Shown here: in pieces, positions 4,554 through 58,946 of the stretch
Layout: each line of letters starts with the position of its first letter
How positions within the stretch are numbered: the first letter of the stretch is position 1
NCBI GenBank assembly: GCA_913041495.1
Contig: CAJWHT010000005.1
Span: 332-64,331 of the forward strand
Source of the DNA: an uncultured Desulfobacteraceae bacterium
GTDB lineage: Bacteria; Desulfobacterota; Desulfobacteria; Desulfobacterales; Desulfobacteraceae
Length of the DNA stretch: 64,000 nt
Direction of reading: 5' to 3'
The notes under the pieces: generated by a model
What the model saw: the letters and a program-made list of their open reading frames with translations, nothing else
Told to the model about the DNA's origin: nothing
Database searches by the model: none
Program-made: the position numbers and the translations under genes

Positions 4554-5162
4554 ATGGGGTTGATCTCATCCACCCATTCCATGAGCCGGTATTATATTGA
4601 AGGGGCATTTGAAGGCGGTACCATGGAGGAAGTCAGGACCGGGCTGATTGAAAATGCCATGCCGAAAATTGAAAGTGAATATGAGGAAATATCTGCGGGC
4701 TGGACCCCCTTTGAAAGCCCGTATAATCCGGATTTTGAAAAATTTTCATTTGTCTTCGGGACCTATTTTCTTTTCTCCTTGCGCATTGATAAAAAGTCCA
4801 TTCCGGCCAAACTGGTACAAAAACACATGGCCCTTGAAATCGAAAAGAAAAAAGAGGAGAGCGGCCGGGATTTTATTTCAAAAAATGAAAAGTCGGAAAT
4901 CAAGGAGTTTGTCCTGGATGTGCTGATGCATAAAATTCCCTCGATTCCAAGCATCTATGACGTGCTCTGGAGCTATGAGGAGAAACAGCTCATCATCTTC
5001 TCCACCCAGAAGGCGGCCAATGAATTGTTTGAAACACTTTTCTTAAAGTCCTTCAACCACAAGCCCATCAGGATATTCCCCTATACCAAGGTTGAAAAGC
5101 TGGGCAAGTTTACCGACACCCAGAAGGACAAAATTCTTAACCTGACACCGTTAAAATACTAA
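4554..5162 (+). CDS. RdgC-like recombination-associated protein (short form)
   Basis: Good SD (AAAGGAG). The block KKSIPAKLVQKHMALEIEKKKEESGRDFISKNEKSEIKEFVLDVLMHKIPS ... STQKAANELFETLFLKSF is colinear with the E. coli RdgC region [39 protein letters not shown] ... ASAKKAEDTLALLRKSL. Confidence 0.6.
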   Translation: MGLISSTHSMSRYYIEGAFEGGTMEEVRTGLIENAMPKIESEYEEISAGWTPFESPYNPDFEKFSFVFGTYFLFSLRIDKKSIPAKLVQKHMALEIEKKKEESGRDFISKNEKSEIKEFVLDVLMHKIPSIPSIYDVLWSYEEKQLIIFSTQKAANELFETLFLKSFNHKPIRIFPYTKVEKLGKFTDTQKDKILNLTPLKY

Positions 5163-5172
5163 AGGGGATCTC

Positions 5173-5709
5173 ATGCTTGATATCGCAACCGCCTATAATA
5201 AATATCTTTTCCTGGGCAATGAATTCTTAACCTGGCTCTGGTTTCTCATTGAAACAGAGCAAGACATCACCAAAATCCTGGGATCCGGGGAACCGATCAC
5301 CCTGGAAATCGGCAATTCCCTGAGCCTTGAAAACAATCTGGGGGATAAATCCAAGGAAAAAATTACCATCAAGGGGGATCAGGCAGGGCTGGAAGAGGGA
5401 ACCACCGCCCTGAGAAAAGGGGCCGTGGTCACGGACATCAACCTTTTGTGTAAAATCGGGGAAGAAGAGTATAAGTTTTCCATCAAAGGGGAAAGCTTCA
5501 ATCTCACCGGTTTAAAAACCCCGGCCATAGACACCTCCGGCTCAGAGGATGAAATCGAAGGGATGGTCATTGAAAAAACCTTTTTGTTACTCAAGGTTAC
5601 CGGAGTTATTGACACCCTGTTTTTAAAATATATTGAGCGCAGGATCTCAGAAAATTGGAAAAATGAAGAATTCCAGGAGATTAAACGCTGGATCCACGTA
5701 GAACAATAA
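5173..5709 (+). CDS. hypothetical protein, likely partner of the RdgC-like gene
   Basis: 178 aa, starts 10 nt after the RdgC-like stop and has an SD (AAAGGGG). The N-terminal GNEFLTWLWF motif is recalled from deltaproteobacterial RdgC-like proteins, so this is a weak call. Confidence 0.5.
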   Translation: MLDIATAYNKYLFLGNEFLTWLWFLIETEQDITKILGSGEPITLEIGNSLSLENNLGDKSKEKITIKGDQAGLEEGTTALRKGAVVTDINLLCKIGEEEYKFSIKGESFNLTGLKTPAIDTSGSEDEIEGMVIEKTFLLLKVTGVIDTLFLKYIERRISENWKNEEFQEIKRWIHVEQ

Positions 5710-14337: not shown

Positions 14338-15879
14338 ATGAATCAGATAAAATGGAAGCGACTATTAGACGCTGGGCACAGGATATCCCTGGTGCTGCTG
14401 AGCCTGATCTGTTTTTCAGGCATCGCATTTTCAGCGGCCCAAAACCATAATGACATGGATATTGTCACCGCAGTTGAGGTGGAACTGATGATGGACCAGG
14501 CGGTGCCCTCTTATCTTTTGGATGTCCGCTGTAAAGAGGGGATCGTTACTTTGGCCGGCACGGTGAACAATCTGCTGGCAAGAGACAGGGCCCGGGACAT
14601 CGCTGAAACCGTCAAGGGGGTCCGGGCCGTTGTCAACCGGATCAACGTGGATCCGGTCAAGGAAAGGAGTGACGATGCGATTCATTCCGATGTGGTGAAC
14701 GCCCTGTACACCAATCCGGCCACCGAATACTTCGATATCGCGGTCAGTGTTGAAAAGGGAAAGACCACCCTGACGGGGACGGTGGACTCCTATGTGGAAA
14801 AACGGCTGGCCGAAAAGGTGACAAAGGGCATCAGCGGTGTTGTCTCGGTTGAGAACCAGATTGAGATGAAGTATAAAACCGACCGGTCCGATTCGGATTT
14901 CAGGCATGACATCAAAGAATCCATGCGCTGGGATACCCTGGTGGACCAGAACCTGATACGGGTGACGGTCAAAGGCAAACAGGTGACCCTGAAAGGAACG
15001 GTGGGCAGTGCTGCTGAAAAAAGCCGGGCGATCACCCATGCCTGGATGCCCGGGATAAAAGATGTGGATGCTGACGGCCTTAAGGTGGAACGATGGGCAA
15101 GGGATCCGGACCTGAGGACGAACAAGTATACCCTGAAACCGGATAAAGAGATTAAAGCGGCTGTTGAATCGGCCCTGCTCCATGATCCCAGGGTGCTGTC
15201 CACCCGGGTGTCCACCCGGGTAACCGATGGGATCGTCACCCTGAGCGGCCGGGTAAACTACCTTCAGGCAAAACGAGCCGCTGCCCAGGACGCCAGAAAC
15301 ACCGTTGGGGTTGTCCGGGTAAAAAATCATCTCAAGGTGGTGCCGCCCGTAAAGACCATCGGCAATGCCGAGCTTGAGGATAAAATTTTAGAGCGGCTGG
15401 ATGCGGATGCCTATCTGGGTGACTACGATTTTAAAGCGAACGTCATTGCCGGTGCCGCAGACCTTTACGGAACCGTTGACACCTATTATGAAAAAATAAG
15501 GGCCGAAGACCTGGCATCGGAAATTGCAGGCATCCTTTATGTAGACAACAATATCGTTGTCAAGAAAACATGGCATCCGATGGTTTTCAATCCCTATGTG
15601 GATGAATCCAGTACCGAAGACTATGCATGGCATACCTTTAAGCCTGGTATCACCACCCATAAAAGTGACTGGAAAATAACGGAGAACATCCGGGATGAGT
15701 TGTTCTGGAGCCCGTTTGTGGATGCCGACCAGGTGACGGTGGTCGTGGATGACGGCAAGGCCACGCTCACCGGCCAGGTGGATTCCTGGTCGGAATACGA
15801 CGCCGCAACCCAGAATGCCCTTCAGGGAGGTGCCGTATCCGTTGACAACGATCTGACGATTTCCTATCTGGCGCCATAA
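14338..15879 (+). CDS. multi-BON-domain protein (OsmY-like, secreted or membrane-anchored)
   Basis: 513 aa with an N-terminal hydrophobic anchor. Repeated ...V.V.V..G.VTL.G.V.....K..A......GV..V.N.I... BON units. Strong SD (GGAGG). Confidence 0.85.
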   Translation: MNQIKWKRLLDAGHRISLVLLSLICFSGIAFSAAQNHNDMDIVTAVEVELMMDQAVPSYLLDVRCKEGIVTLAGTVNNLLARDRARDIAETVKGVRAVVNRINVDPVKERSDDAIHSDVVNALYTNPATEYFDIAVSVEKGKTTLTGTVDSYVEKRLAEKVTKGISGVVSVENQIEMKYKTDRSDSDFRHDIKESMRWDTLVDQNLIRVTVKGKQVTLKGTVGSAAEKSRAITHAWMPGIKDVDADGLKVERWARDPDLRTNKYTLKPDKEIKAAVESALLHDPRVLSTRVSTRVTDGIVTLSGRVNYLQAKRAAAQDARNTVGVVRVKNHLKVVPPVKTIGNAELEDKILERLDADAYLGDYDFKANVIAGAADLYGTVDTYYEKIRAEDLASEIAGILYVDNNIVVKKTWHPMVFNPYVDESSTEDYAWHTFKPGITTHKSDWKITENIRDELFWSPFVDADQVTVVVDDGKATLTGQVDSWSEYDAATQNALQGGAVSVDNDLTISYLAP

Positions 15880-33168: not shown

Positions 33169-36100
33169 TCATTTGTCTCCACTATTCCGGATAGTGGCCA
33201 TAAGATCATTAAAATGACCGTTTTTGTTGAAAAAGGCAAAGGCTCCGCTGTCTGACACTTCCCGGGACATATCCTCGTGTTCGTACATGGTCAGCAGAAT
33301 AACCCGTATATCGGGGAACGCCTCTGTAATCTGCCGGGTGGCCGCCAGGCCGTCCATCACGGGCATGGAAATATCCATGAGGATAACGTCGGGCTGATCC
33401 CGGACCGCCATCTCAACGGCCTGGGCTCCGTTCGAAGCCACGGCGGTCATACGGATGTCCGGCTGTTGGGCCAGTACGTTGGACAGGGCGTCCCGCATCA
33501 CGGCATGGTCGTCCGCCAGCATGACCCGGATCTCTTCACCCGGTTTAGCGCCTGAGGCTGAATCCGGCTGAACGGCTTCGGGCACCGGCGGGGACGGTAC
33601 GGCATCCGGTGTTATGTGATGGTTTTCGTCGCTGTAGTGTTCCGTGGCAAGCGGGGATGTCAGTGAAATTCGGGTGCCTTTTTCCGGTGCACTGTCAATC
33701 TCGAACCTGCCCCCCAGCAGTTGAATCCGTTCCCGGATGTTAAAAAGCCCGAATCCGCTTAGGTGTTTTTTTTCATCCAGTGCAAGATCCGACGGATCAA
33801 ACCCGTTCCCCCCGTCGCTGACAACGATGGAAAGCCGGGATTCGTCAGCAGTCACAAAGACGGATGCTTCCGTGACACCGGAATGCTTCACCGCATTGAA
33901 CAAAAGCTCCCGGACGGATTCGTAAAGCAGGATGTTCAAGGATTCCTGTTTTACTTCAATGTGCTCGTCCGCTGTGAGGGTGACCTCAAACCCGTGCCGC
34001 GATTTCATCTGCCGGATCAGCCACCGAAGGGCGCTGACCAGTCCCTTGGCATGGAGAATGGTGGGGGACAGTTCCGTGGCCAGGCTTCTGGAGGCGTTTA
34101 TGGCTTCTGCCGTCATTTCAAGGGCAGCGGTAATCTCTTTTTGCCCCCCGGCCATACCTTCTTTGCGCTGCAGGGTTTCCAGCCTAAGTTTGGTTCCCAC
34201 CAAGAGCTGCTGGATATGGTCGTGGAGCAGGGCAGCCAGGCGGCGGCGTTCCCGCTGTTCCGACAGGGTAAGCTGGCCGGTGAGCCGGACCAGTTCTTCA
34301 CTTCGCCGCCGCATCCCCGCTTCCAGTTTTTTGAGCCGGGTCATATCCTTGGCAATGGTGGCAATGGCTTCGGGCTGTCCGGTGCTGTCCTTTATGGTAA
34401 ATGCGGTGAGTAGCGAGGGGATGGTCTGGCCGGATCTGTTTTGCCGGACCGCTTCAAGATCGTGAACCATCTCCCCGTCAATGCAGCGCCTGCGCAGTTT
34501 TCTTTCAAAGGCCTGCTGTTTTTCAGGCACCAGCCGGAACACGGACGTACCGGTAAGTTCATCCACGGCGTACCCATATGCGGTTGCGGCCGCATAGTTG
34601 ACCTCGGTCATCAGGCCTTCCAGATCCTCAATGATGATGGGATCGGTGGCATCCATAAAGACACGGGACAGCTTTTTCACCTCGTCTTCGGCCTGCTGGC
34701 GGGTTTCCGCTTCCAGTTCAAGGGCCTTAACCGTGGATTCCAGTTCCGCGGTCCGTTTTCGAACCTGTTTTTCAAGGCTCTCTCCGTGGTTGGCCAGCAG
34801 CGTTTCCATCTGTTTGCGCTCCGTGATGTCCTGGACCACCACGTTGACGGCGGCAATTTCTCCGTCCCGGTCCGTGATGGGCATCCACTGCTCGATCCAG
34901 GTCCGTTCCATATCGGGATATGCCGGGGTTTTACCGGTTATTTCCATGTCCCAGACCGGCTCCCCGGTCTTACGGATCGTTTCCAAAATATCCTCAACCT
35001 GGTCCGCCAGGTCCGGCACAATTTCGCTGATATGACGGCCGATATGGTCCGGTATGGGTATCCCGTTGATATCGGCCATGGTCTGGTTGATCCGCAGGAA
35101 CTTAAGTTCTTTGTCGATCATGCACAGGCCGATGGGGGCGCTGGTGTAGATGGCTTCCAATTCGGAAAGGTTCCGGCGGGCCGCCTCCTGGCTTGCCTTA
35201 AGGTCGGCTTCGAATTTTTTACGCTGGGTTTCATCCCGGCAGATTATCCCAAGACGCCCTGCTTCAAGGTGGTATACCGACAGGAGAAGGTCTTTTTCCA
35301 GCCGGGAAAAATGGGTGGAAAAAATGTTGGGTCTGCTGCCTTTGGATATATTTTCCAGCTGTGTTAGCATCTGTTTTTTGGCAAGCTCGGGCAGACCGAC
35401 AATACTGGCCCTCAGGGGGAGATCCCTGGCGTCTATGGAGAGCATGGTCTCCATGGCGGCATTCACCTGCTGGATCATCACGTCGGTGGGGCGGCTGCCC
35501 GGCCCGTGCTCCAGTTCGCAGACCAGAAGCGCCTCGTTCATGTTGTCCACCAGGAGCCGGTAGCGCTGTTCGCTGGCTTCAAGGTCGCTGAGTGTGGCGG
35601 TGAGTTCGTCGGATTTGACCCGCATCTCCTGGTTCACGGTATTGAGTTCTTCGTTGGAAGCCTGAAGTTCTTCGTTGCTGGTTTCCAGTTCTTCATTGGA
35701 GGCCTGGAGCTCCTCGTTGGCGGACTGGAGTTCTTCGTTGAGGGACTGGAGTTCTTCACCACTGGTTTCAAGTTCCTCCAGGGTGTCCTGGAGATGCTCC
35801 CGGGTCACCTCAAGTTCCTGTTCCAGTTCCGCGATCCTTGAATCGCTCCGGTCGCTGTCGGATTCATCAGGGGACAGGGGGGGATCCGGAAGCTCAATCC
35901 GGTCGAAAATCGTCAGAAAATAGGTCTGGCCGGCGGTTTCTTTTACCTGCCCCACCTTCAGCCGTACGGCCCTGTTGCCGTCCTGGCCCTCCATTTTGAT
36001 TTCCTGGCTGGTGAGGACGCGGTCTTCCTTGCTTGCCCGGTGCAGCAGGCTCTGGAGGATGTACCGGAACTCCTGGCGGGCCATGGATACGGCGTTGAGG

Positions 36101-37767
36101 GTGTCTTTTACCGAGCCTTCGGGCAGCTTGAGGTAATCCCCCACATCCCCCCGGATATAAAGGATGTTGCCCTGGGCATCGGTCATGACAGCGCTGCAGT
36201 CCAGGACCTGGAGCAGGGAACTTGCAAACTCCCGCTCTTTCCACAGTTCGGTTTTTTCAAGGCTCTGGGGGGAACCGGTCATCCGGGCAAGCTGATGTGA
36301 CTGGTGACGCTGGACCAACTGGGGCATCCGGTGGCTCAAGGTTTCCCTGCGTTCGTAGATCTTCCACTTGGTGTGAACCGCTGAAAAAAGTTCGGTCTTC
36401 TGATTCACGGACTCTGATTTTCCCAGGAAGAGCAGTCCCCCCGGGTCCAGGCTGTAGTGAAAGAGGGACAGGATCTTGTTTTGCAGTTCGGGATTCAGGT
36501 AGATGAGCAGGTTCCGGCAGGATATCAGGTCCAGGTGGAGAAAGGGGGTGTTCTTGAGCAGGTCCTGGCGGGCCAGCACCACCAGGTCCCGGACCGGTTT
36601 GTTAACCGAGACCGTGTTGTCCGTGTGGGTGAAATACCGCTCAAACCGCCGGTTGTCCGTATCCATGACCGTGGCTAGGGGATAGGTGCATTTCCGGGCG
36701 AACTGGATGGAGTCCTCGTCAATGTCCGTGGCAAAAATCTGGATCCGGTACTTGTCGATTTGATCGCCCAGGATATCAAACAGGAGCATGGACATGGAAT
36801 AGGCCTCTTCGCCGGTGGCGCAGGCCGGAACCCATATGCGGATACTGTCTCCGGGGTGCTTTTCCTTAAGCTTTTTACGCAGGGCCACGGTCAGGGCCTC
36901 GAAGGCTTTGGTATCCCTGAAAAAGCTGGTGACCGAAATCAGCAGGTCCTTGTAAAGCTTGTCCAGCTCATCCGGGTTTGCTTTGACGAATTTCAGATAG
37001 TCGTAGAGGGTGGACAGCTTGTGCAGCACCATGCGGCGGCTGATGCGGCGGTATATGGTGCTGGATTTGTAGTCTGAGAAATCCACCTTGAGCCGTTTGT
37101 TCAGCAGGCTTAAGATCATGCGGATCTCATCCAGGTGCCGGTCGTGTTCCGGCTCCTGTGCAATGAGGGAGGGGTATTTGAGGGCGGATTCCAGTTCATG
37201 CCCGATTTTTTCCGGCGGCAGCACCAGGTCCACACAGTCCGTTTCCATGGCAGCCCTTGGCATGCCGTCGAATTTGGCCGTGTCCAGGGATTGGACAATG
37301 GTGATCCCGTCGTTGGATTTGATGGCCCGGATCCCGTGGGCCCCGTCGGTGCCGGTGCCCGAAAGTATGATGCCCACGGCATTGTGGCCTTTTTCTTCGG
37401 CCAGGGAGGTGAAAAAAAGGTCGATGGAGGGTTTGGGGCCGATGGACGCGGCCTGGCTCAGTTCCAGGCGGCCGCCGGCCAGTTTGACGTCTTTGCTGGG
37501 GGGGGTGATGTAAAGGGTATCTGGTCTGACCCGGGTGCCGTCCTTGATGATTTCGATTTTAAGCCGGGTGTGTTTGGTCAGAAGGCTGTCCAGCATGCTC
37601 CGGTACCGGGGGGCCAAGTGCTGGGCAATCACGTAGGCAATGCCTTCTTTTACCGGCAGGCCCGGCAGGATTCTCTGGAGGGCGTCCAGTCCGCCGGCTG
37701 AGGCGCCGATGCCCACAACAACTGCTTCATTGCTGTTTTTTTTGTCTGAATCTGCGGGTGTGTTCAT
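33169..37767 (-). CDS. CheB methylesterase - CheR methyltransferase - PAS - coiled coil - PAS/PAC - HisKA_3 - HATPase_c - receiver multidomain sensor kinase
   Basis: 1532 aa. VVVGIGASAGGLDAL (CheB), IWVPACATGEEAYS (CheR SAM site), EELQSLNEELQSANEELQASNEEL coiled coil, RRLAALLHDHIQQLLVG H-box, NAVKHSG N-box, and a C-terminal RVMLADDH...DVILMDISMPVMDG receiver. Confidence 0.92.
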   Translation of the reverse strand: MNTPADSDKKNSNEAVVVGIGASAGGLDALQRILPGLPVKEGIAYVIAQHLAPRYRSMLDSLLTKHTRLKIEIIKDGTRVRPDTLYITPPSKDVKLAGGRLELSQAASIGPKPSIDLFFTSLAEEKGHNAVGIILSGTGTDGAHGIRAIKSNDGITIVQSLDTAKFDGMPRAAMETDCVDLVLPPEKIGHELESALKYPSLIAQEPEHDRHLDEIRMILSLLNKRLKVDFSDYKSSTIYRRISRRMVLHKLSTLYDYLKFVKANPDELDKLYKDLLISVTSFFRDTKAFEALTVALRKKLKEKHPGDSIRIWVPACATGEEAYSMSMLLFDILGDQIDKYRIQIFATDIDEDSIQFARKCTYPLATVMDTDNRRFERYFTHTDNTVSVNKPVRDLVVLARQDLLKNTPFLHLDLISCRNLLIYLNPELQNKILSLFHYSLDPGGLLFLGKSESVNQKTELFSAVHTKWKIYERRETLSHRMPQLVQRHQSHQLARMTGSPQSLEKTELWKEREFASSLLQVLDCSAVMTDAQGNILYIRGDVGDYLKLPEGSVKDTLNAVSMARQEFRYILQSLLHRASKEDRVLTSQEIKMEGQDGNRAVRLKVGQVKETAGQTYFLTIFDRIELPDPPLSPDESDSDRSDSRIAELEQELEVTREHLQDTLEELETSGEELQSLNEELQSANEELQASNEELETSNEELQASNEELNTVNQEMRVKSDELTATLSDLEASEQRYRLLVDNMNEALLVCELEHGPGSRPTDVMIQQVNAAMETMLSIDARDLPLRASIVGLPELAKKQMLTQLENISKGSRPNIFSTHFSRLEKDLLLSVYHLEAGRLGIICRDETQRKKFEADLKASQEAARRNLSELEAIYTSAPIGLCMIDKELKFLRINQTMADINGIPIPDHIGRHISEIVPDLADQVEDILETIRKTGEPVWDMEITGKTPAYPDMERTWIEQWMPITDRDGEIAAVNVVVQDITERKQMETLLANHGESLEKQVRKRTAELESTVKALELEAETRQQAEDEVKKLSRVFMDATDPIIIEDLEGLMTEVNYAAATAYGYAVDELTGTSVFRLVPEKQQAFERKLRRRCIDGEMVHDLEAVRQNRSGQTIPSLLTAFTIKDSTGQPEAIATIAKDMTRLKKLEAGMRRRSEELVRLTGQLTLSEQRERRRLAALLHDHIQQLLVGTKLRLETLQRKEGMAGGQKEITAALEMTAEAINASRSLATELSPTILHAKGLVSALRWLIRQMKSRHGFEVTLTADEHIEVKQESLNILLYESVRELLFNAVKHSGVTEASVFVTADESRLSIVVSDGGNGFDPSDLALDEKKHLSGFGLFNIRERIQLLGGRFEIDSAPEKGTRISLTSPLATEHYSDENHHITPDAVPSPPVPEAVQPDSASGAKPGEEIRVMLADDHAVMRDALSNVLAQQPDIRMTAVASNGAQAVEMAVRDQPDVILMDISMPVMDGLAATRQITEAFPDIRVILLTMYEHEDMSREVSDSGAFAFFNKNGHFNDLMATIRNSGDK

Positions 37768-38099: not shown

Positions 38100-39632
38100 A
38101 TGATAACCCATAGAAACCATACCGTTATACTCACCGTCATCCTTATATTTTTGTTTTCCGGAACGGCTTTAACCGCCCCCCGGATGAACGACGATACCAT
38201 CACGGCGGCTGTGGAGGAAGAACTGCTTCACGATCCTGTGGTGGAGGCCTTCCGCATCGCAGTGGGCTGCAGGGACGGCGTGGTGGAACTGACCGGGGTT
38301 GCAGAAAACATACTGGCAAAAGAACGGTCGCTGAACATCGCTGAAACCGTAAAAGGGGTCCGGTCCGTGGTCAACCGGATCCGGGTTGTGCCTGCAGGCA
38401 CCCGAAGCGATACCATAATCCGCAGGGATGTGATTCAGGCCTTGGCCGGAGATCCTGCCGTAGAGTCCTATGATATCGCCGTGAGCGTTGTGGACCGGGA
38501 AGTGACCCTCCGGGGCCAAACAGACTCGTTCAGGGAAAAGGAACTGGCCGGTACCGTGGCCAAATCCGTGGCAGGGGTCGAGGCCCTGGACAACCAGATC
38601 AACCTGGTCTACCCGGATGACCGCAGGGACAAAGATATTCTTGCGGATATCCTGGCAGGATTGAAGTGGGATCTTTTGGTGGACCACGCACTTATCGGTG
38701 TAAAGGTCAATGACGGACAGGTAACGCTCTCCGGGACGGTGGGCAGTGCCGCAGAAAAAACCAGGGCCAATGCCGTGGCCTGGGTAACGGGTGTCAAGGC
38801 CATTGATGACGGTCAGCTTCATGTTGCCCGCTGGGCCAGGGATCCGGATTTACGGCAGGGCAAGTATGTCTCTAAAACAGACGAAGAGATCCGGCAGGCC
38901 GTTATCGCGGCATTGAAGACGGACCCCCGGGTGTCCATGGAAAATGTTTTGGTTACGGTGGCTGACGGTACCGTGACGCTCAGGGGCACGGTGGATACCC
39001 TCAGGGCCCGCCGGGCGGCGGCCGGTGATACCGTCAACACCGTGGGCGTTTACCGGTATAAGAATCACCTGAAAGTCGGGGAACCGGAACCCGGTCCCAG
39101 CGACAGTGAACTTGAACAGCGTATCGAAGCGGCACTGGAACGGGATGCCTATGTAGACGGGTATGAGGTGCATGTCGATGTCCGATCCGGTGTGGCCGCC
39201 CTCTACGGCAGGGTGGATACGGGGTTCGAAAAGATTCGGGCCGAAGATGTGGCCGGTACCCTGCCCGGTATTTTTGCAGTGGAAAACAACATCCTGGTGA
39301 GCAAAGGATGGTATCCCCATTATTACAACCCCTATGTAGATGTCACCGAACTGGAAACTTACACCTGGTACGAATACGGGCGTGCCCCCCGTACTACCCT
39401 GAAAAGCGACCGGGAAATTAAGCGAAGCATTGAAGAAGAACTGTGGTGGAGTCCCTTTGTATCTTCTGACCGGATCGATGTCCGTGTGGACGGGGGAAAG
39501 GCTATTCTCAAAGGTGAGGTCACCTCAAAAACCGAATATGATGCCGCAACGGAAAACGCCTGGGAAGGCGGGGCAACCGCGGTGGACAACGATCTTGTGA
39601 TCTTAGGCCTGCTTCATCCCAAAAAGAACTGA
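38100..39632 (+). CDS. multi-BON-domain protein, paralog of 14338-15879
   Basis: 510 aa, colinear with the other BON protein. Shared blocks: IAETVKGVR.VVNRI, ARWARDPDLR, NTVGV.R.KNHLKV, WSPFV, DAAT.NA..GGA. Strong SD (AGGAGG). Confidence 0.85.
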   Translation: MITHRNHTVILTVILIFLFSGTALTAPRMNDDTITAAVEEELLHDPVVEAFRIAVGCRDGVVELTGVAENILAKERSLNIAETVKGVRSVVNRIRVVPAGTRSDTIIRRDVIQALAGDPAVESYDIAVSVVDREVTLRGQTDSFREKELAGTVAKSVAGVEALDNQINLVYPDDRRDKDILADILAGLKWDLLVDHALIGVKVNDGQVTLSGTVGSAAEKTRANAVAWVTGVKAIDDGQLHVARWARDPDLRQGKYVSKTDEEIRQAVIAALKTDPRVSMENVLVTVADGTVTLRGTVDTLRARRAAAGDTVNTVGVYRYKNHLKVGEPEPGPSDSELEQRIEAALERDAYVDGYEVHVDVRSGVAALYGRVDTGFEKIRAEDVAGTLPGIFAVENNILVSKGWYPHYYNPYVDVTELETYTWYEYGRAPRTTLKSDREIKRSIEEELWWSPFVSSDRIDVRVDGGKAILKGEVTSKTEYDAATENAWEGGATAVDNDLVILGLLHPKKN

Positions 39633-39927: not shown

Positions 39928-40206
39928 ATGAACAGACAGGAATTTGAAAGCTATATGAACAACTGGCTGAAAACATGGGGGCAGACCATTCATGACATCG
40001 AAACCCAGAACGGCGGGGCCCCGTCCGAAGTGTACAAGGCCAAGCTGGATGAAATGAAGATCGTCCTCCACGATATGCGAACAAAGGTGGAAGATCTGCA
40101 GAACAGCAAGGACGACAAGTCCTGGAGCGACATGAAAGTCCGGGTGGAAGATATGGTCGGGCCCATAGAGGAGTCGTTCAAGGAGAGTCTGGCTTACTTT
40201 CATTAA
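39928..40206 (+). CDS. hypothetical small helical protein
   Basis: 92 aa with SD AAAGGAG. Its stop codon is the first triplet of repeat copy A. Confidence 0.55.
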   Translation: MNRQEFESYMNNWLKTWGQTIHDIETQNGGAPSEVYKAKLDEMKIVLHDMRTKVEDLQNSKDDKSWSDMKVRVEDMVGPIEESFKESLAYFH

Positions 40207-40293
40207 CGGCCATGGGCCGCCCATGAATGTTATTCGGTGTGCCCACAACAAACTATGAAAGATTTCAACTGGTTGTGTGGTTCTTTCATATAA
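40204..40293 (+). repeat. structured intergenic repeat, copy A
   Basis: TAACGGCCATGGGCCGCCCA ... CCACAACAAAC ... ATGAAAGA-loop-TTCTTTCATATAA. The same blocks occur in the same order at 51202-51291 and 58820-58926. Confidence 0.85.
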
Positions 40294-40339
40294 AAAGATG
40301 GGCCTGTCAGAACGCAACCTCTAATGGAAAGGAGGCAAC

Positions 40340-50094: not shown

Positions 50095-51204
50095 ATGTCT
50101 GAAAAAAAAAAGCTGAGATCAGGTTTTACCACAGGCGCTGCAGCAGCGGCTTCGGCAAAAGCCGCAGTACTTACCCTGCTGACCTGCCAGACCCCCCGGC
50201 AGGTGGAGATCCGTTTTCTCACCGGAGAGGCCAAAACCATTCCGGTAAAAGCGGTGACGGAACTGTCAACCACCAGTGCCCAGGCCCTGGTGATCAAAGA
50301 TGCCGGAGACGATCCCGATATCACCCATAAAGCCGAAATCGGTGCCAGGGTCACCCTGAAGGCGGCAAGCCCGCCGGGGATCACCATCACCGGCGGTGAC
50401 GGTGTGGGCCGTGTGACCAAGCCGGGCCTGGAAGTGCCTGTGGGGGAACCGGCCATCAACTCCGGGCCGAAAACAATGATTGAAGACGCGGTCTATGGGG
50501 CCTATCAGCAACTCTGCATGCCCTTCCGCCACCAGGTACATGTGGAGGTTTTCGTACCAAAGGGTGAGGAACTGGCAAAGAAAACCCTGAACGCCAGGCT
50601 GGGAATCCTTGGCGGCATTTCCATCCTGGGAACCACGGGCATCGTCAGGCCCTTATCCCACGACGCCTATATCGCCACCATCCGGTCCGGCATTTCAGTG
50701 GCCCGGGCCAACGGATCCAATTCACTGGTCTTTACCACCGGCCGGCGCAGCGAGCGTTACGCCATGGGTCTATTTCCCGGATTCAGGGAAGATGCCTTTA
50801 TCCAGACCGGGGATTTTTTCAAGGCAGGCATTGATATGGTGCTGGCGGAAAATGAGAATCCGGGCGCACCGGTAACACAGATTATCTATACCGTATTTTT
50901 CGGCAAAGCCGTGAAAATGGCCTTGGGCTTTGAGCACACCCATGCGGCAAAGTCGGAACTCACACTGAAGTCCCTTGCCCGGTGGGCCGATGAAAAAACC
51001 GGGGACAAGGCACTTGCACAAAATATCCGTTCGGCCAATACGGCCCGCCACGCCTTTTCATTTATCTATCCCAAATTCCCGGATCTTTTGCAGTTCGTGG
51101 GAAAAAAAATGATGGCAGCAGCCTCAGGGTTTGCCGGCCCCGGTGTTGACATCCGGATCATTATCCTGGATTTTGAAGGAAAGGTTGCCTTTGATTCCAA
51201 CTAA
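50095..51204 (+). CDS. cbiD: cobalt-precorrin-5B (C1)-methyltransferase
   Basis: 369 aa. LRSGFTTGAAAAASAKAA N-terminus, GDDPDITH, and LGILGGISILGTTGIVRP blocks. Confidence 0.9.
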   Translation: MSEKKKLRSGFTTGAAAAASAKAAVLTLLTCQTPRQVEIRFLTGEAKTIPVKAVTELSTTSAQALVIKDAGDDPDITHKAEIGARVTLKAASPPGITITGGDGVGRVTKPGLEVPVGEPAINSGPKTMIEDAVYGAYQQLCMPFRHQVHVEVFVPKGEELAKKTLNARLGILGGISILGTTGIVRPLSHDAYIATIRSGISVARANGSNSLVFTTGRRSERYAMGLFPGFREDAFIQTGDFFKAGIDMVLAENENPGAPVTQIIYTVFFGKAVKMALGFEHTHAAKSELTLKSLARWADEKTGDKALAQNIRSANTARHAFSFIYPKFPDLLQFVGKKMMAAASGFAGPGVDIRIIILDFEGKVAFDSN

Positions 51205-51291
51205 CGGCCATGGGCCGCCCATGGACGTCATGCACCGTGGCCACAACAAACCATGAAAGAATTCATTTACTTGGTTGGTTCTTTCATATAA
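51202..51291 (+). repeat. structured intergenic repeat, copy B
   Basis: Begins at the cbiD stop codon with the identical 20-mer TAACGGCCATGGGCCGCCCA. It also has the CCACAACAAAC core and an ATGAAAGAA / TTCTTTCAT 9-bp stem. Confidence 0.85.
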
Positions 51292-51340
51292 CGCTTTGTA
51301 AGCGGGCCCGGCATCAGATTCTGCCCCAAAAGGAGGAAAT

Positions 51341-52441
51341 GTGAAAAAACATGTATCCAACGCCAGGCTGATCCTCAATGCATTGGGCAATATGACCGAG
51401 TTTCTCAAGAACCAGGATACCGGAGATCCCGACACCCTGGATCCGGACGAATGCTTTAACTACCCCCTTGAAATTATCCGCCAGACCCTGCTGTTTGATA
51501 TTTCAGTCCTCTATAAGGTATCCAACGTTATCGAGGACATGCTGATTTTAGAGGTGGTCCGGGTGCTGGACCCGGACGGACACCGCATGGACCTCAAAGA
51601 GGGGCGAAAGCTTCGGCTGTACCTGGATGCCAGGGACAGGCGGTACGTCAACGAGGTAAATGCCTTTTCCACCAAACGCACCTCCCATATCAACGTCTCC
51701 GGCATGGGCTGCGATATCATGGGCTATGTCTATTTCCCCAGGGATTTCGGCGGGGCCTACCTGGTGGGCGGGGATTATTTCGGCAAAGATACGGGCCTCC
51801 ATGACTTTGAAATTTCTGCCATGGATATCATGTGCAATATGCTGTCCGCCATCCTCCTTAAAACCCGGTTCAAGGAAAAGGCAGAGATCGACGATCTCAC
51901 CGGCCTGGCAAATTCCGGTAAAATCAGGCATGAAACCGAACGCATCCTGAAACGGTTTCGCCGCAAACCCTCAAGCTGTGCCTGCATTGCCATGGGAGAT
52001 ATTGATTTCTTTAAAAAGGTGAATGACACCTACGGCCACATCCAGGGAGATCTGGTCCTAAAGGAAGTGGCCGCCATCATCTCCGAATCCCTGCGGGAGT
52101 ACTTTGACATCGCCGGCAGATACGGTGGCGAAGAGTTCCTCCTGGTCTTTGACGAAACAGACGGCAAAAGAACCATGGAAATCGTAGAGCGGATCAGAAA
52201 GACCATAGAAGCCCACAGGTTTCAACAGCTCAGCGATACCGGCCGGCCGGTGAAAGATAAGTATATTCAGGTTACCATGTCCTTCGGCGTGGCGGAAATG
52301 ACCGGCAAAAGTCCTGCCTGCGACCCCCAGGACTGGATCGGAAAGGCGGACAAGGCGCTTTACGACTCCAAACAGTCCGGCCGGAACCGGACCACCTTTT
52401 ACCAGGACAGTTCAGCCCAAGGGGAGGATGCCCCTAAATAA
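51341..52441 (+). CDS. GGDEF diguanylate cyclase with an N-terminal GAF-like sensory domain
   Basis: DDLTGLANSG, FKKVNDTYGHIQGD, and RYGGEEFLLVF active site. GTG start with AAAGGAGG. Confidence 0.88.
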   Translation: MKKHVSNARLILNALGNMTEFLKNQDTGDPDTLDPDECFNYPLEIIRQTLLFDISVLYKVSNVIEDMLILEVVRVLDPDGHRMDLKEGRKLRLYLDARDRRYVNEVNAFSTKRTSHINVSGMGCDIMGYVYFPRDFGGAYLVGGDYFGKDTGLHDFEISAMDIMCNMLSAILLKTRFKEKAEIDDLTGLANSGKIRHETERILKRFRRKPSSCACIAMGDIDFFKKVNDTYGHIQGDLVLKEVAAIISESLREYFDIAGRYGGEEFLLVFDETDGKRTMEIVERIRKTIEAHRFQQLSDTGRPVKDKYIQVTMSFGVAEMTGKSPACDPQDWIGKADKALYDSKQSGRNRTTFYQDSSAQGEDAPK

Positions 52442-58084: not shown

Positions 58085-58822
58085 ATGGAAAATATGATCG
58101 AGTTCAAAAATGTTCACAAGTGGTACGGTAAGCTCCACGTGCTCAACGATATCAACCTGGAGATTTCCAGAGGTGAGGTGTTGGTGATCTGCGGTCCTTC
58201 CGGGTCGGGCAAATCCACCCTGATCCGATGTATCAACCGCCTGGAGGAAATTCAGAAAGGGGAAATAGTGGTCAATAACACCCCGGTTCATGATAAAACC
58301 GTCAACCTGACGCGGCTGCGTGAGGATATCGGGTTTGTTTTCCAGCAGTTCCACCTTTATCCCCATATGACGGTGCTTCAGAACATCACACTGGCCCCGG
58401 TGAATGTGAAGAAGATGAGCCGGAAAAAGGCAGAGGCCATTGCCATGGAAAAACTGGAACAGGTGGGACTCACCGACAAAAGCGGTGCATACCCCGGTCA
58501 GCTCTCCGGCGGGCAGCAGCAGCGGGTTGCCATTGCCAGGGGGCTTGCCATGAGCCCTGAAATCATGCTCTTTGACGAACCCACCTCCGCCCTGGACCCG
58601 GAGATGATCGGCGAGGTATTGGACGTTATGGTCAATCTTGTCTCCGAGGGCATGACCATGTGCGTGGTCACCCATGAAATGGGTTTTGCCAAAAAAGTGG
58701 CGGACCGCGTTGTGTTCATGGATGAGGGCAAAATCGTGGAAACCGGAAAGCCGGATGAATTCTTTGACAATCCCAAGACGGAGCGGGCTGAAAGTTTTAT
58801 CAGCATGATACTGACCCATTAA
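58085..58822 (+). CDS. amino-acid ABC transporter ATP-binding protein (GlnQ-like)
   Basis: Walker [11 protein letters not shown]-loop, [15 protein letters not shown] signature, and Walker [13 protein letters not shown]. Confidence 0.93.
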
Positions 58823-58926
58823 CGGCCATGGGCCGCCCAGCTTCTGCCCTATGGGTATGAATGTCATTGGCGTGACCACAACAAACTGTCAAAGAATTCA
58901 ATAACTTGTTTGGTTCTTTTATATAG
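58820..58926 (+). repeat. structured intergenic repeat, copy C (with internal insertion)
   Basis: Begins at the ABC ATPase stop with the identical 20-mer. An extra segment of about 17 nt (GCTTCTGCCCTATGGGTA) follows, then the CCACAACAAAC core and AAAGAA / TTCTTT stem. Confidence 0.8.
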
Positions 58927-58946
58927 AAAAAGAAAAGGAAGATGTC

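What the first reader, a model, noticed from the sequence alone, without database searches (positions are those of the whole stretch)
40204..40293. Undescribed ~90-nt structured repeat family present three times (copy A: definition and structure)
Three same-orientation copies occur at 40204-40293, 51202-51291 and 58820-58926. The first 20 nt are identical in all three (TAACGGCCATGGGCCGCCCA) and contain the near-palindrome CGGCC-ATG-GGCCG. An identical CCACAACAAAC core follows. The last element is an AT-rich hairpin: ATGAAAGA(A), a loop of about 19 nt, then TTCTTTCAT, giving a 9-bp stem in A and B and 6 bp in C, ending in ATATAA/ATATAG. No transposase or other coding function explains the repeat. 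Several roles are possible: a REP/MITE-like element, an mRNA 3'-end stabiliser or terminator, or a portable promoter. For the promoter idea, all copies carry a -35-like TTCA(A/T)(C/T) and a -10-like TATA(A/G)(A/C) separated by 19 nt. They lie 21-50 nt upstream of the next start codon.
Basis: seen in the sequence. Interest (0 to 1): 0.65.

Follow-up and report, generated by a model that had tools for sequence, protein, structure and literature searches.

The report
Small mobile repeat inserted after stop codons
The three 90-base repeats are real copies of a large, apparently undescribed family of small non-coding, hairpin-bearing mobile DNA elements of marine sulfate-reducing bacteria that insert, in one orientation, directly behind the triplet TAA, often the stop codon of a gene.

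Summary
All three copies are where stated, and each starts at the TAA stop codon of the upstream gene. The source genome holds about 80 copies. One related Desulfobacteraceae genome holds at least 14, and over 118 metagenome contigs carry diverse relatives. The unit has five parts: a 5' module (TAA)C-NGCC-ATG, a variable hairpin, a conserved CACAACAAA core, an invariant-based hairpin ATGAAAG…CTTTCAT, and the end ATAAA. Both hairpins show compensatory changes. Orthologous sites in four related genomes lack the element, so copies B and C are insertions placed exactly between a stop codon and the native spacer. Insertion is orientation-specific. It lies 3' of A-N-T-A-A, with no terminal inverted repeats and no target duplication. 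Unlike subfamilies stack head-to-tail at the TATAA(A) end. Of 96 solitary copies, 24% sit on a sense stop codon against 7% expected. No Rfam family, promoter, terminator, conserved ORF, plasmid or phage match explains it. Best reading: a non-autonomous element moved in trans, most likely by a single-strand (HUH-type) transposase. The enzyme was not found, so this step is inferred. The promoter idea is not supported. I rate it a new variant of a known kind, of moderate interest.

The parts
40204..40206 (+). TAA stop codon of ORF 39928-40206; the insertion target of copy A (flank reads cAtTAA, fitting A-N-T-A-A)
40207..40294 (+). Copy A, the element proper (88 nt): CGGCC...TTTCATATAAA
   Evidence: 95 bits; boundaries 40204/40205 and 40293-40296 from 81 genomic copies
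40207..40219 (+). Copy A 5' hairpin P0, CGGCC-ATG-GGCCG
   Evidence: compensatory GC to UA/AU/CG at the second pair
40220..40242 (+). Copy A variable middle hairpin region (P1)
   Evidence: weakly structured; length and sequence differ between subfamilies
40243..40253 (+). Copy A conserved single-stranded core CCACAACAAAC
40255..40289 (+). Copy A 3' hairpin P2, ATGAAAGA...TCTTTCAT
   Evidence: (z about -3.6 across the family)
40290..40294 (+). Copy A conserved 3' terminus ATAAA; conservation stops immediately after it
51202..51204 (+). TAA stop codon of cbiD (50095-51204); target of copy B (flank AcTAA)
51205..51291 (+). Copy B, the element proper (87 nt). P0 51205-51217, core 51241-51251, P2 51253-51287, end TATAA 51287-51291. 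The native 49-nt spacer follows, up to the GTG at 51341
   Evidence: 86 bits; orthologous sites L234, L235, L236 lack it
58820..58822 (+). TAA stop codon of the ABC-transporter ATPase gene (58085-58822); target of copy C (flank cAtTAA, identical in the empty orthologue L231)
58823..58927 (+). Copy C, the element proper (105 nt, degenerate). P0 58823-58835, 18-nt insert 58840-58857, core 58876-58886, P2 58888-58922 with ATG changed to GTC and a 6-bp stem, end TATAGA
   Evidence: (60 bits)

Best explanation
The three repeats are copies of a family of small (about 75-105 nt) non-coding, non-autonomous mobile DNA elements of Desulfobacteraceae. Each element inserts in one orientation immediately 3' of a short motif, A-N-T-A-A. 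That motif is very often the last sense codon plus the TAA stop codon of a gene. The element carries neither terminal inverted repeats nor a target-site duplication. It has different hairpins next to its two ends and ends in ...TTTCATATAAA, a sequence that resembles the target. As a result new copies, including copies of other subfamilies, insert behind old ones and build head-to-tail arrays. SHOWN: multiplicity, architecture, compensatory changes in the hairpins, insertion polymorphism at orthologous sites, the junction motifs, the orientation bias and the stop-codon enrichment. INFERRED: movement through a single-stranded DNA intermediate, catalysed in trans by an HUH-type (IS200/IS605-, RAYT- or IS91-like) transposase encoded elsewhere. 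In this model the hairpins are the protein's handles and cleavage occurs after A-N-T-A-A at the left flank and after ATAAA at the right end. Stop-codon sites are over-represented partly because the motif contains TAA. They are probably also favoured because an insertion there disrupts neither a gene nor its signals. The copies are co-transcribed with their neighbours. Any effect on the flanking genes is secondary and untested.
For: Copy number: 81 pieces in the 5.47-Mb source assembly, with sharp common boundaries. There are 14 full copies in the Desulfobacteraceae MAG Bpl_3, at least 118 metagenome loci, and 154 covariance-model hits in the sequence held. Insertion polymorphism: the copy-C site in L231 reads ...ACC CAT TAA followed by a 35-nt spacer, with no element and an identical C-terminus. 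The copy-B site is empty in L234, L235 and L236, and the window keeps the native spacer tail after the element. The model gives no hit in any of these loci. Junctions: at the 5' flank, A at -5 in 88%, T at -3 in 74%, then AA; the 3' end ...TCATATAAA is followed by random sequence; flanks show no correlation, so there is no TSD; the ends are not inverted repeats. Arrays: unlike subfamilies are joined as ...TTTCATA|TAAC... or ...TTTCATAT|AAAC.... An element also interrupts an IS91-like transposase gene. Stop codons: 23 of 96 solitary copies lie exactly on a sense stop, against 7.2% expected for A-N-T-A-A sites outside genes (p = 2e-7). The stop offset of 0 is a single spike. The upstream gene is on the same strand in 50 cases and the opposite strand in 19. 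Hairpins: 95.7% of cells are paired and 69 cells show double changes against 10 in shuffles, 0/500. The 3' half folds with z = -3.6 in 92% of copies. Stems are equally good on both strands, with G.T 17 against A.C 23. This fits DNA rather than RNA pairing. The defining traits of IS200/IS605 are no inverted repeats, no duplication, insertion 3' of a tetra- or pentanucleotide, and a hairpin at each end. Short ends-only derivatives exist, and left and right hairpins can differ strongly (PMC7290912).
Against: No transposase of any kind was found next to or within a copy, and none was linked to the family. A motif scan of about 1 Mb of flanks found no Y1 (IS200-like) transposase. It found only one dead IS91-like gene with different ends. 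No autonomous long version with the same ends was found. The two terminal hairpins are unlike each other and abut the ends more closely than in IS608. Orientation shows no link to local GC skew, although short contigs make this a weak test. The most conserved block, CACAACAAA, is central rather than terminal; it was also part of the search pattern used for the metagenome scan, so its invariance there is partly ascertainment. That the TAA is native rests on one clean orthologue (copy C) plus the frame statistics. No excision product or circle junction was seen in reads.
Confidence: 0.6

Rival explanations
1. It is a host-selected RNA module. The element is transcribed as part of the 3' UTR or intercistronic region. 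Its hairpins and the CA-rich single-stranded core then act on the mRNA. Possible actions are protection from 3' exonucleases, a binding site for an RNA-binding protein, or a hairpin 1 nt behind the stop codon that hinders the terminating ribosome and lowers expression of the upstream gene, as reported for REPs close to stop codons. On this view mobility only explains how it spread.
For: Position directly after stop codons and sense-orientation bias. Conserved hairpins with compensatory changes flank an invariant unpaired CACAACAAA. Copies lie inside longer metatranscriptome contigs, for example a 1560-nt contig at depth 39 with the element in its middle. The 5' 20-mer is identical in all three window copies while the rest is about 80% identical.
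Against: The neighbouring genes are functionally unrelated: MobA-like, GGDEF and PLP enzyme downstream, and a hypothetical protein, CbiD and an ABC ATPase upstream. About three quarters of copies are not at stop codons, and roughly a quarter to a third are antisense to their neighbours. Copies occur in stacks and inside a transposase pseudogene. There is no excess of G.U over A.C in the stems and no strand difference in folding. No Rfam family matches even at E = 1. The RNA evidence consists of assembled contigs without strand information and may include DNA.
Confidence: 0.2
2. It is a portable sigma-70 promoter, with a -35-like TTCAAC and a -10-like TATAAA, that drives the downstream gene.
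For: TATAAA is conserved at the 3' end. In the window a start codon follows within 20-49 nt of each copy. In 38 copies the next downstream gene within 300 nt is on the same strand, and in 28 of these it starts within 100 nt of the element's end.
Against: The -35-like hexamer lies in the variable loop of P2 and is absent from most subfamilies. The spacing is 19 nt. The promoter scan scores no site inside any copy. The downstream orientation bias is not significant (38 against 26). Many copies lie in convergent spacers or in stacks.
Confidence: 0.05
3. It is a recombination site of attC type, or a short core site for a tyrosine or serine recombinase. A small circular molecule integrates at TAA by site-specific recombination, leaving the core ATAA on both sides.
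For: The element is bounded by A-N-T-A-A on the left and ATAA(A) on the right. In arrays neighbouring units share this sequence. The position right after stop codons, in the orientation of the gene, resembles integron cassettes.
Against: The two ends do not pair with each other, and no RYYYAAC...GTTRRRY pair exists. Copies are dispersed among housekeeping genes 7-11 kb apart, not in cassette arrays. No integrase or recombinase is seen nearby. The left and right 'cores' do not covary.
Confidence: 0.1
4. The copies are three chance local duplications, or relics of a small gene encoding a 12-aa peptide MK(E/D)F..L.GSFI, and have no mobility.
For: In the window, Bpl_3 and MDTD subfamilies, P2 reads as a 12-codon ORF ending at the terminal TAA.
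Against: There are hundreds of copies in many organisms. The P2 length varies from 43 to 48 nt, so the frame is not kept. Copy C lacks the ATG. Orthologous sites are empty.
Confidence: 0.02

Closest known systems
IS200/IS605 family and its ends-only derivatives (PATEs); single-strand 'peel and paste' transposition by a Y1 HUH transposase
   Same: No terminal inverted repeats and no target duplication. Strictly oriented insertion 3' of a conserved 4-5-nt motif. A hairpin next to each end. Very small non-coding derivatives moved in trans. Left and right hairpins can differ strongly (PMC7290912).
   Different: No tnpA or tnpB was found with or near any copy. The hairpins abut the ends within 0-5 nt, whereas in IS608 they lie about 10-19 nt away (from my own knowledge of IS608). 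I know of no described member with the target A-N-T-A-A. A conserved central CACAACAAA block and head-to-tail stacks are not typical.
REP / BIME / REPIN elements with their RAYT transposases
   Same: Tens to hundreds of extragenic copies per genome. Hairpins are kept by compensatory changes. Copies often lie just after genes, and a trans-acting domesticated HUH enzyme is encoded once per genome (PMC2817692).
   Different: There is no GT(A/G)G head. The unit is 75-105 nt with two different hairpins and an unpaired core, not one 20-35-nt palindrome. Clusters are head-to-tail rather than alternating inverted doublets. No RAYT gene flanked by inverted copies was seen.
Classical bacterial MITEs (Correia/NEMIS, RUP, ERIC and others)
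   Same: Small, numerous, non-coding and intergenic. They are co-transcribed with neighbours and show presence/absence between relatives.
   Different: Those elements have terminal inverted repeats and duplicate their target, often TA (from my own knowledge). This family has neither.
Integron attC sites (for example Vibrio VCRs)
   Same: Hairpin-forming units of 60-140 nt lying directly behind stop codons, in the orientation of the gene.
   Different: The two ends do not pair with each other and there are no core sites. The elements are not arranged as a cassette array next to an integrase. They are dispersed among housekeeping operons.
IS91 / ISCR / Helitron-type rolling-circle elements (Y2 HUH)
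   Same: The two ends differ. A hairpin lies close to the 3' end. Insertion is oriented next to a conserved tetranucleotide and makes no duplication (from my own knowledge).
   Different: The known targets are GTTC/CTTG (IS91) or AT (Helitrons). The one IS91-like gene seen (L130) has a CCTATAC-type end unlike this element, and is itself interrupted by copies.
MIRUs (mycobacterial interspersed repetitive units)
   Same: Intercistronic position inside operons, head-to-tail tandem copies, and overlap with the stop codon of the upstream gene (from my own knowledge).
   Different: MIRUs carry short ORFs thought to couple translation, and they lack conserved hairpins. Here no ORF is conserved.

Membership tests
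IS200/IS605-derived non-autonomous element (PATE) | No terminal inverted repeats and no target-site duplication | tested here: met
   The ends CGGCCATG... and ...TTTCATATAAA are not inverted repeats. The variable flank positions do not match the 3' end.
IS200/IS605-derived non-autonomous element (PATE) | Oriented insertion immediately 3' of a specific tetra- or pentanucleotide | tested here: met
   A-N-T-A-A precedes 74-88% of copies. The empty site L231 already carries cAtTAA. The in-frame stop spike lies at offset 0.
IS200/IS605-derived non-autonomous element (PATE) | Subterminal hairpins at both ends, recognised by TnpA | tested here: inconclusive
   Hairpins at both ends show covariation. 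They are unlike each other, however, and no protein binding could be tested.
IS200/IS605-derived non-autonomous element (PATE) | A cognate Y1 transposase (tnpA) in the same genome, with full-length elements sharing the ends | tested here: not met
   No Y1 motif was found in 4104 ORF segments of about 1 Mb of flanking DNA or in the window. No long variant carries an ORF. Whole genomes could not be searched, so absence is not shown.
IS200/IS605-derived non-autonomous element (PATE) | Strand bias tied to replication (insertion into the lagging-strand template) | not testable with these tools
   Only short contigs were available. The local GC-skew proxy showed no signal (31 positive, 49 negative).
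REP / REPIN (RAYT-mobilised) | A GT(A/G)G head followed by a GC-rich palindrome of 20-35 nt | tested here: not met
   The consensus has no GTAG head, and the unit has two different hairpins plus a core (definition from PMC2817692).
REP / REPIN (RAYT-mobilised) | Clusters of units in alternating (inverted) orientation, and a rayt gene flanked by inverted REPs | tested here: not met
   Arrays are head-to-tail. The few convergent or divergent pairs flank ordinary genes such as etfB or an IS91-like pseudogene.
Classical MITE (DDE transposase) | Terminal inverted repeats and a direct target duplication | tested here: not met
Integron attC site | R''/L'' and L'/R' boxes (RYYYAAC ... GTTRRRY) that pair the two ends; location in cassette arrays | tested here: not met
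   Only TAAC fits R''. There is no GTTRRRY at the 3' end and the ends do not pair. The copies are dispersed.
Any described RNA family (Rfam 15) | A match to a curated covariance model | tested here: not met
   No hit at gathering score in the window. No hit at E up to 1 in seven loci rich in copies.
Sigma-70 promoter | -35 and -10 hexamers 16-18 nt apart, conserved across copies and oriented towards a gene | tested here: not met
Intrinsic terminator | A GC-rich hairpin followed by a U-run on the transcribed strand | tested here: not met
   Only copy A gives a marginal hit. P2 is followed by AUAAA. Copies lie inside long RNA contigs.

The most novel reading that the evidence does not exclude
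The family may be a stop-codon-seeking transposon class with its own, still unknown, mobilising enzyme. Its 5' hairpin, placed 1 nt behind UAA, together with the CA-rich core, may have been co-opted as a mobile 'operon punctuation' module. Such a module would tune translation termination, ribosome rescue or mRNA stability of the upstream gene across many operons of sulfate reducers. The threefold excess at stop codons would then reflect selection for function, not only safe landing.
Probability: 0.15. Interest if true: 0.75.

Novelty: new variant of a known kind. Interest (0 to 1): 0.5.

Why it matters
Desulfobacteraceae genomes are known to be unusually rich in repeats (PMC2702500), but their small non-coding repeats have not been catalogued. 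This family offers a clean architecture, a defined insertion motif and many natural 'before/after' sites. If a single-strand transposase moves it, it adds a target, A-N-T-A-A, and an end design to the HUH repertoire. It would also be a handle for finding the enzyme. It matters for annotation as well. The element supplies or abuts stop codons, breaks assemblies at about 80 places per genome, and can be mistaken for small ORFs, promoters or sRNAs. If the hairpin behind the stop codon affects termination or mRNA decay, dozens of operons in an ecologically important group would be tuned by mobile DNA.

Tried and rejected
- **Rfam:** no family matched at gathering or permissive thresholds.
- **Viral contigs, plasmids and phages:** no copies.
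- **Promoter and terminator scan:** nothing consistent.
- **Small-peptide reading (12-aa ORF in P2; ORFs starting at the ATG of P0):** rejected because the frame and length are not conserved.
- **L125 as an orthologue of the copy-B site:** rejected; the flank similarity was coincidental.
- **Excision or empty alleles within populations:** no informative joints at the elements in metagenome contigs or raw reads, and coverage was too thin.
- **RNA ends from metatranscriptomes:** only assembled, unstranded contigs exist and they break at the repeat, so no ends could be read.
- **Autonomous partner:**
  - No long element with the same ends was found.
  - No Y1 transposase motif was found in the flanks.
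  - The IS91-like gene in L130 has different ends and is a victim of insertion, not a partner.
- **GC-skew proxy for replication-strand bias:** no signal.
- **Literature searches by sequence strings and by topic:** no description of the family was found.
- **The 17-mer genome scan:** mostly chance hits in GC-rich genomes; only the Bpl_3 MAG hits were real.

Full report
**1. The observation**

I read the three places directly. All three copies are on the + strand, at 40204-40294, 51202-51291 and 58820-58927.

- The first 20 nt, TAACGGCCATGGGCCGCCCA, are identical in all three. No such match occurs in 100 shuffles.
- CCACAACAAAC occurs exactly three times in the window, once per copy.
- The AT-rich hairpin ATGAAAGA...TCTTTCAT has 8 bp in A, 9 bp in B and 6 bp in C.
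- Copy C is longer because of an 18-nt insert at 58840-58857.
- Outside the first 20 nt the copies are 75-82% identical.
- In every copy the leading TAA is the stop codon of the upstream ORF. These ORFs are a 92-aa hypothetical protein, CbiD, and an amino-acid ABC-transporter ATPase.
- The downstream genes are a MobA-like nucleotidyl-transferase, a GGDEF protein and a PLP-dependent D-cysteine desulfhydrase/cysteate sulfo-lyase-like enzyme. The neighbours share no function.

**2. The family is large**

- Laying the contigs of the source organism's own 5.47-Mb assembly on copy A gave 81 matching pieces. Their common boundaries are sharp, at 40204/40205 and 40293-40296, and the flanks are unrelated.
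- A genome-collection scan with the 17-mer of the 5' module returned mostly chance hits in GC-rich genomes. It also returned 14 loci in one other MAG, 'Desulfobacteraceae bacterium Bpl_3'. Each carries the whole element and almost all are preceded by ATAA.
Nearly all also carry a 5' module, which that search did not select for.
- A covariance model built from 69 copies finds 3 copies in the window, 115 in the first 100 loci and 36 in the rest.
- The nearest protein relatives of the window's genes are from Desulfobacula and Desulfobacter, at 72-82% identity. The host is therefore an uncultured marine member of the Desulfobacteraceae.

**3. Anatomy**

The unit reads as follows, from 5' to 3':

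- **Flank:** A-N-T-A-A.
- **5' module:** C-NGCC-ATG. In the 'long' type this forms a 5-bp hairpin (CGGCC-ATG-GGCCG) followed by a second hairpin of variable sequence and length. In the 'short' type it is followed only by CCC-NNNN-GGG.
- **Core:** an unpaired CACAAC(A/G)AA plus two or three variable bases.
- **3' hairpin:** its base ATGAAAG/CTTTCAT is nearly invariant, while its top and loop vary (43-48 nt in all).
- **Terminus:** ATAAA.

Supporting measurements:

- Compensatory changes are plain in both hairpins. Examples are CGGCC/GGCCG against CTGCC/GGCAG, CAGCC/GGCTG and CCGCC/GGCGG, and GAAAGAA/TTCTTTC against GAAAGAG/CTCTTTC, GAAACTC/GAGTTTC and GAAAGT/ACTTTC.
- On the model-fitted alignment 95.7% of cells pair. 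There are 69 cells with changes on both sides against 10.1 in shuffles (0 of 500 reach the observed value). Slid controls drop to 43-58% pairing. The alignment was fitted to the structure, which inflates pairing. The double changes were, however, also visible in the plain MAFFT alignment.
- The 3' half folds far better than shuffles (mean z -3.6; 92% below -2). The 5' half folds only modestly better (z -1.2). Both strands fold equally well.
- Stem mismatches show no excess of G.T (17) over A.C (23). That points to pairing constrained at the DNA level rather than in RNA only.

**4. It is an insertion**

- **Copy C.** The orthologous transporter operon in a relative (L231, PLP enzyme 75% identical) ends ...ACC CAT TAA, exactly as in the window. 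A 35-nt spacer follows, with no element.
- **Copy B.** Three relatives with the same CbiA-CbiD-GGDEF order (CbiD 79-82% identical) have spacers of 45, 103 and 61 nt without the element. In the window the native spacer tail (...CTGCC..GGAGGAAAT|GTG) is still present behind the element. The model finds nothing in these loci.
- The element therefore sits exactly between a stop codon and the old spacer.

**5. How it lands**

- Across 100 unique copies the base at -5 is A in 88%, -4 is A/C/T, and -3 is T in 74%, followed by AA and then the element's C.
- At the other end ...TTTCATATAAA is followed at once by random sequence.
- The variable flank bases do not recur at the 3' end, so there is no target duplication. 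The ends are not inverted repeats.
- Arrays of two to four units occur. They often mix different subfamilies, long next to short. The joints read ...TTTCATA|TAAC... or ...TTTCATAT|AAAC..., so the TATAA(A) end of one unit serves as the landing motif of the next. Mixed arrays cannot arise by tandem duplication.
- One element interrupts an IS91-like transposase gene, and two more abut it.

**6. Relation to genes**

- Of 103 unique copies, 23 have their TAA as the in-frame stop of a sense ORF of at least 80 codons. The stop offsets form a single spike at 0 and only 4 ORFs end inside the element.
- Among A-N-T-A-A sites that lie outside genes in the same loci, only 7.2% are sense stop codons. The observed figure is 24% of 96 solitary copies (p = 2e-7). 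In the window it is 3 of 3, and in Bpl_3 it is 8 of 14.
- The upstream neighbour is on the same strand in 50 cases against 19. The downstream neighbour is on the same strand in 38 against 26, which is not significant.
- The motif contains TAA, which explains the sense bias. The remaining threefold excess may reflect a wider target preference or selection for harmless sites.
- In reverse orientation the end TTTATATGA can supply a TGA stop, as for etfB in L087.

**7. What it is not**

- No Rfam family matches, even at E = 1.
- There are no copies in viral contigs, plasmids or phages.
- No sigma-70-like site is scored inside any copy. No hairpin is followed by a U-run.
- The 12-codon ORF in the 3' hairpin, and the ORFs that start at the ATG of the 5' hairpin, are not conserved in frame or length.
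- Copies lie inside longer metatranscriptome contigs, so they are probably read through. Those contigs are unstranded and break at repeats, so no RNA ends could be read.

**8. Mechanism**

The combination below is the signature of transposons that move as single strands through HUH nucleases, as stated for IS200/IS605 in PMC7290912:

- no inverted repeats and no duplication;
- strict orientation;
- insertion 3' of a pentanucleotide;
- a hairpin by each end;
- tiny ends-only derivatives.

That paper also documents ends-only derivatives and strongly different left and right hairpins. REPs and their RAYT enzymes (PMC2817692) show that such repeats can depend on a single distant gene. I therefore infer trans-mobilisation by an HUH-type enzyme, with cleavage after A-N-T-A-A on the left and after ATAAA on the right.

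This step is not shown, for four reasons:

- No Y1 transposase motif was found in about 1 Mb of flanks.
- No autonomous version was found.
- GC skew gave no strand signal.
- No excision products were seen.

A short-core site-specific recombinase remains possible. So does an RNA-level function superimposed on mobility.

**9. Comparison and novelty**

The family works most like IS200/IS605 ends-only elements and REP/REPIN repeats, but it fails a defining test of each:

- no cognate transposase was seen;
- there is no GTAG head;
- arrays are head-to-tail rather than inverted.

It also fails the tests for classical MITEs and for attC sites. Literature searches by sequence and by topic found no description of it. 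The Desulfobacterium autotrophicum genome paper notes only that repeats are unusually many. I rate it a new variant of a known kind, namely small non-autonomous interspersed repeats, and of moderate interest.

Noticed in passing
window 58840-58857 (copy C); also L156, L181, L167: The 18-nt insert GCTTCTGCCCTATGGGTA in copy C is itself recurrent. The same insert is in L156 and in two contigs of the source assembly. It occurs partly in L181, and in inverted orientation inside the 5' hairpin of L167. It may be a nested mini-module or a hairpin extension.
   Followed up: partly
L117:628-~900 (+); L173 minus strand from 12251: Long variants exist. A normal 5' module plus CACAACGAA is followed by a 150-250-nt hairpin-rich domain in place of the short 3' hairpin. 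They end in ...TTTTATAAAAA or ...TTTTCTTATAAAAG and contain no ORF.
   Followed up: partly
L130:4844-6500: An IS91-family (Y2 HUH) transposase pseudogene, with RYYGYFSN and CPKC motifs, is interrupted by one element and abutted by two stacked elements. Its own 3' end has a CCTATAC-type origin unlike the element's ends.
   Followed up: partly
L136, L141, L178, L191, L199, L206, L208 (PDWI/PDWJ contigs): One subfamily starts with ACGAAC instead of A-N-TAAC. It shares extra conserved flanks (TTATTTTTCAAC upstream, GAAATTGGGGAAATTAGCA downstream). This suggests a larger composite repeat that carries the element.
   Followed up: no
L087:4678-4776 (+) and 4765-5544 (-): A copy lies antisense between etfB and etfA. 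The last codons and the TGA stop of etfB (...KVFI*) lie inside the reverse complement of the element's 3' end (TTTATATGA). In the wider set, 4 antisense ORFs end at this TGA.
   Followed up: partly
window 51210-51344: In copy B an ORF of 44 codons starts at the ATG in the loop of the 5' hairpin. It ends at a TGA that overlaps the GTG start of the GGDEF gene. The equivalent ORFs in A and C have 4 and 10 codons, so this is probably chance.
   Followed up: yes
window 35644-35775 (inside ORF 33169-37767, minus strand): A tandem repeat with a 21-nt period (5.4 copies, 74% matches) lies inside the 1532-aa CheB/CheR/PAS multidomain gene. It implies a 7-residue periodic segment.
   Followed up: no
window 14575-14643 and 38313-38381: A 69-nt stretch is 84% identical between the six-BON-domain gene (38100-39632) and a place 24 kb upstream. 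This suggests a paralogous BON-domain gene.
   Followed up: no
L229:1993-2500: In another relative (GCA_002919055) the site orthologous to copy C has a 505-nt spacer that begins TAACGGC right after the stop codon. The covariance model gives no hit there. It could be an unrelated insertion or a decayed copy.
   Followed up: partly
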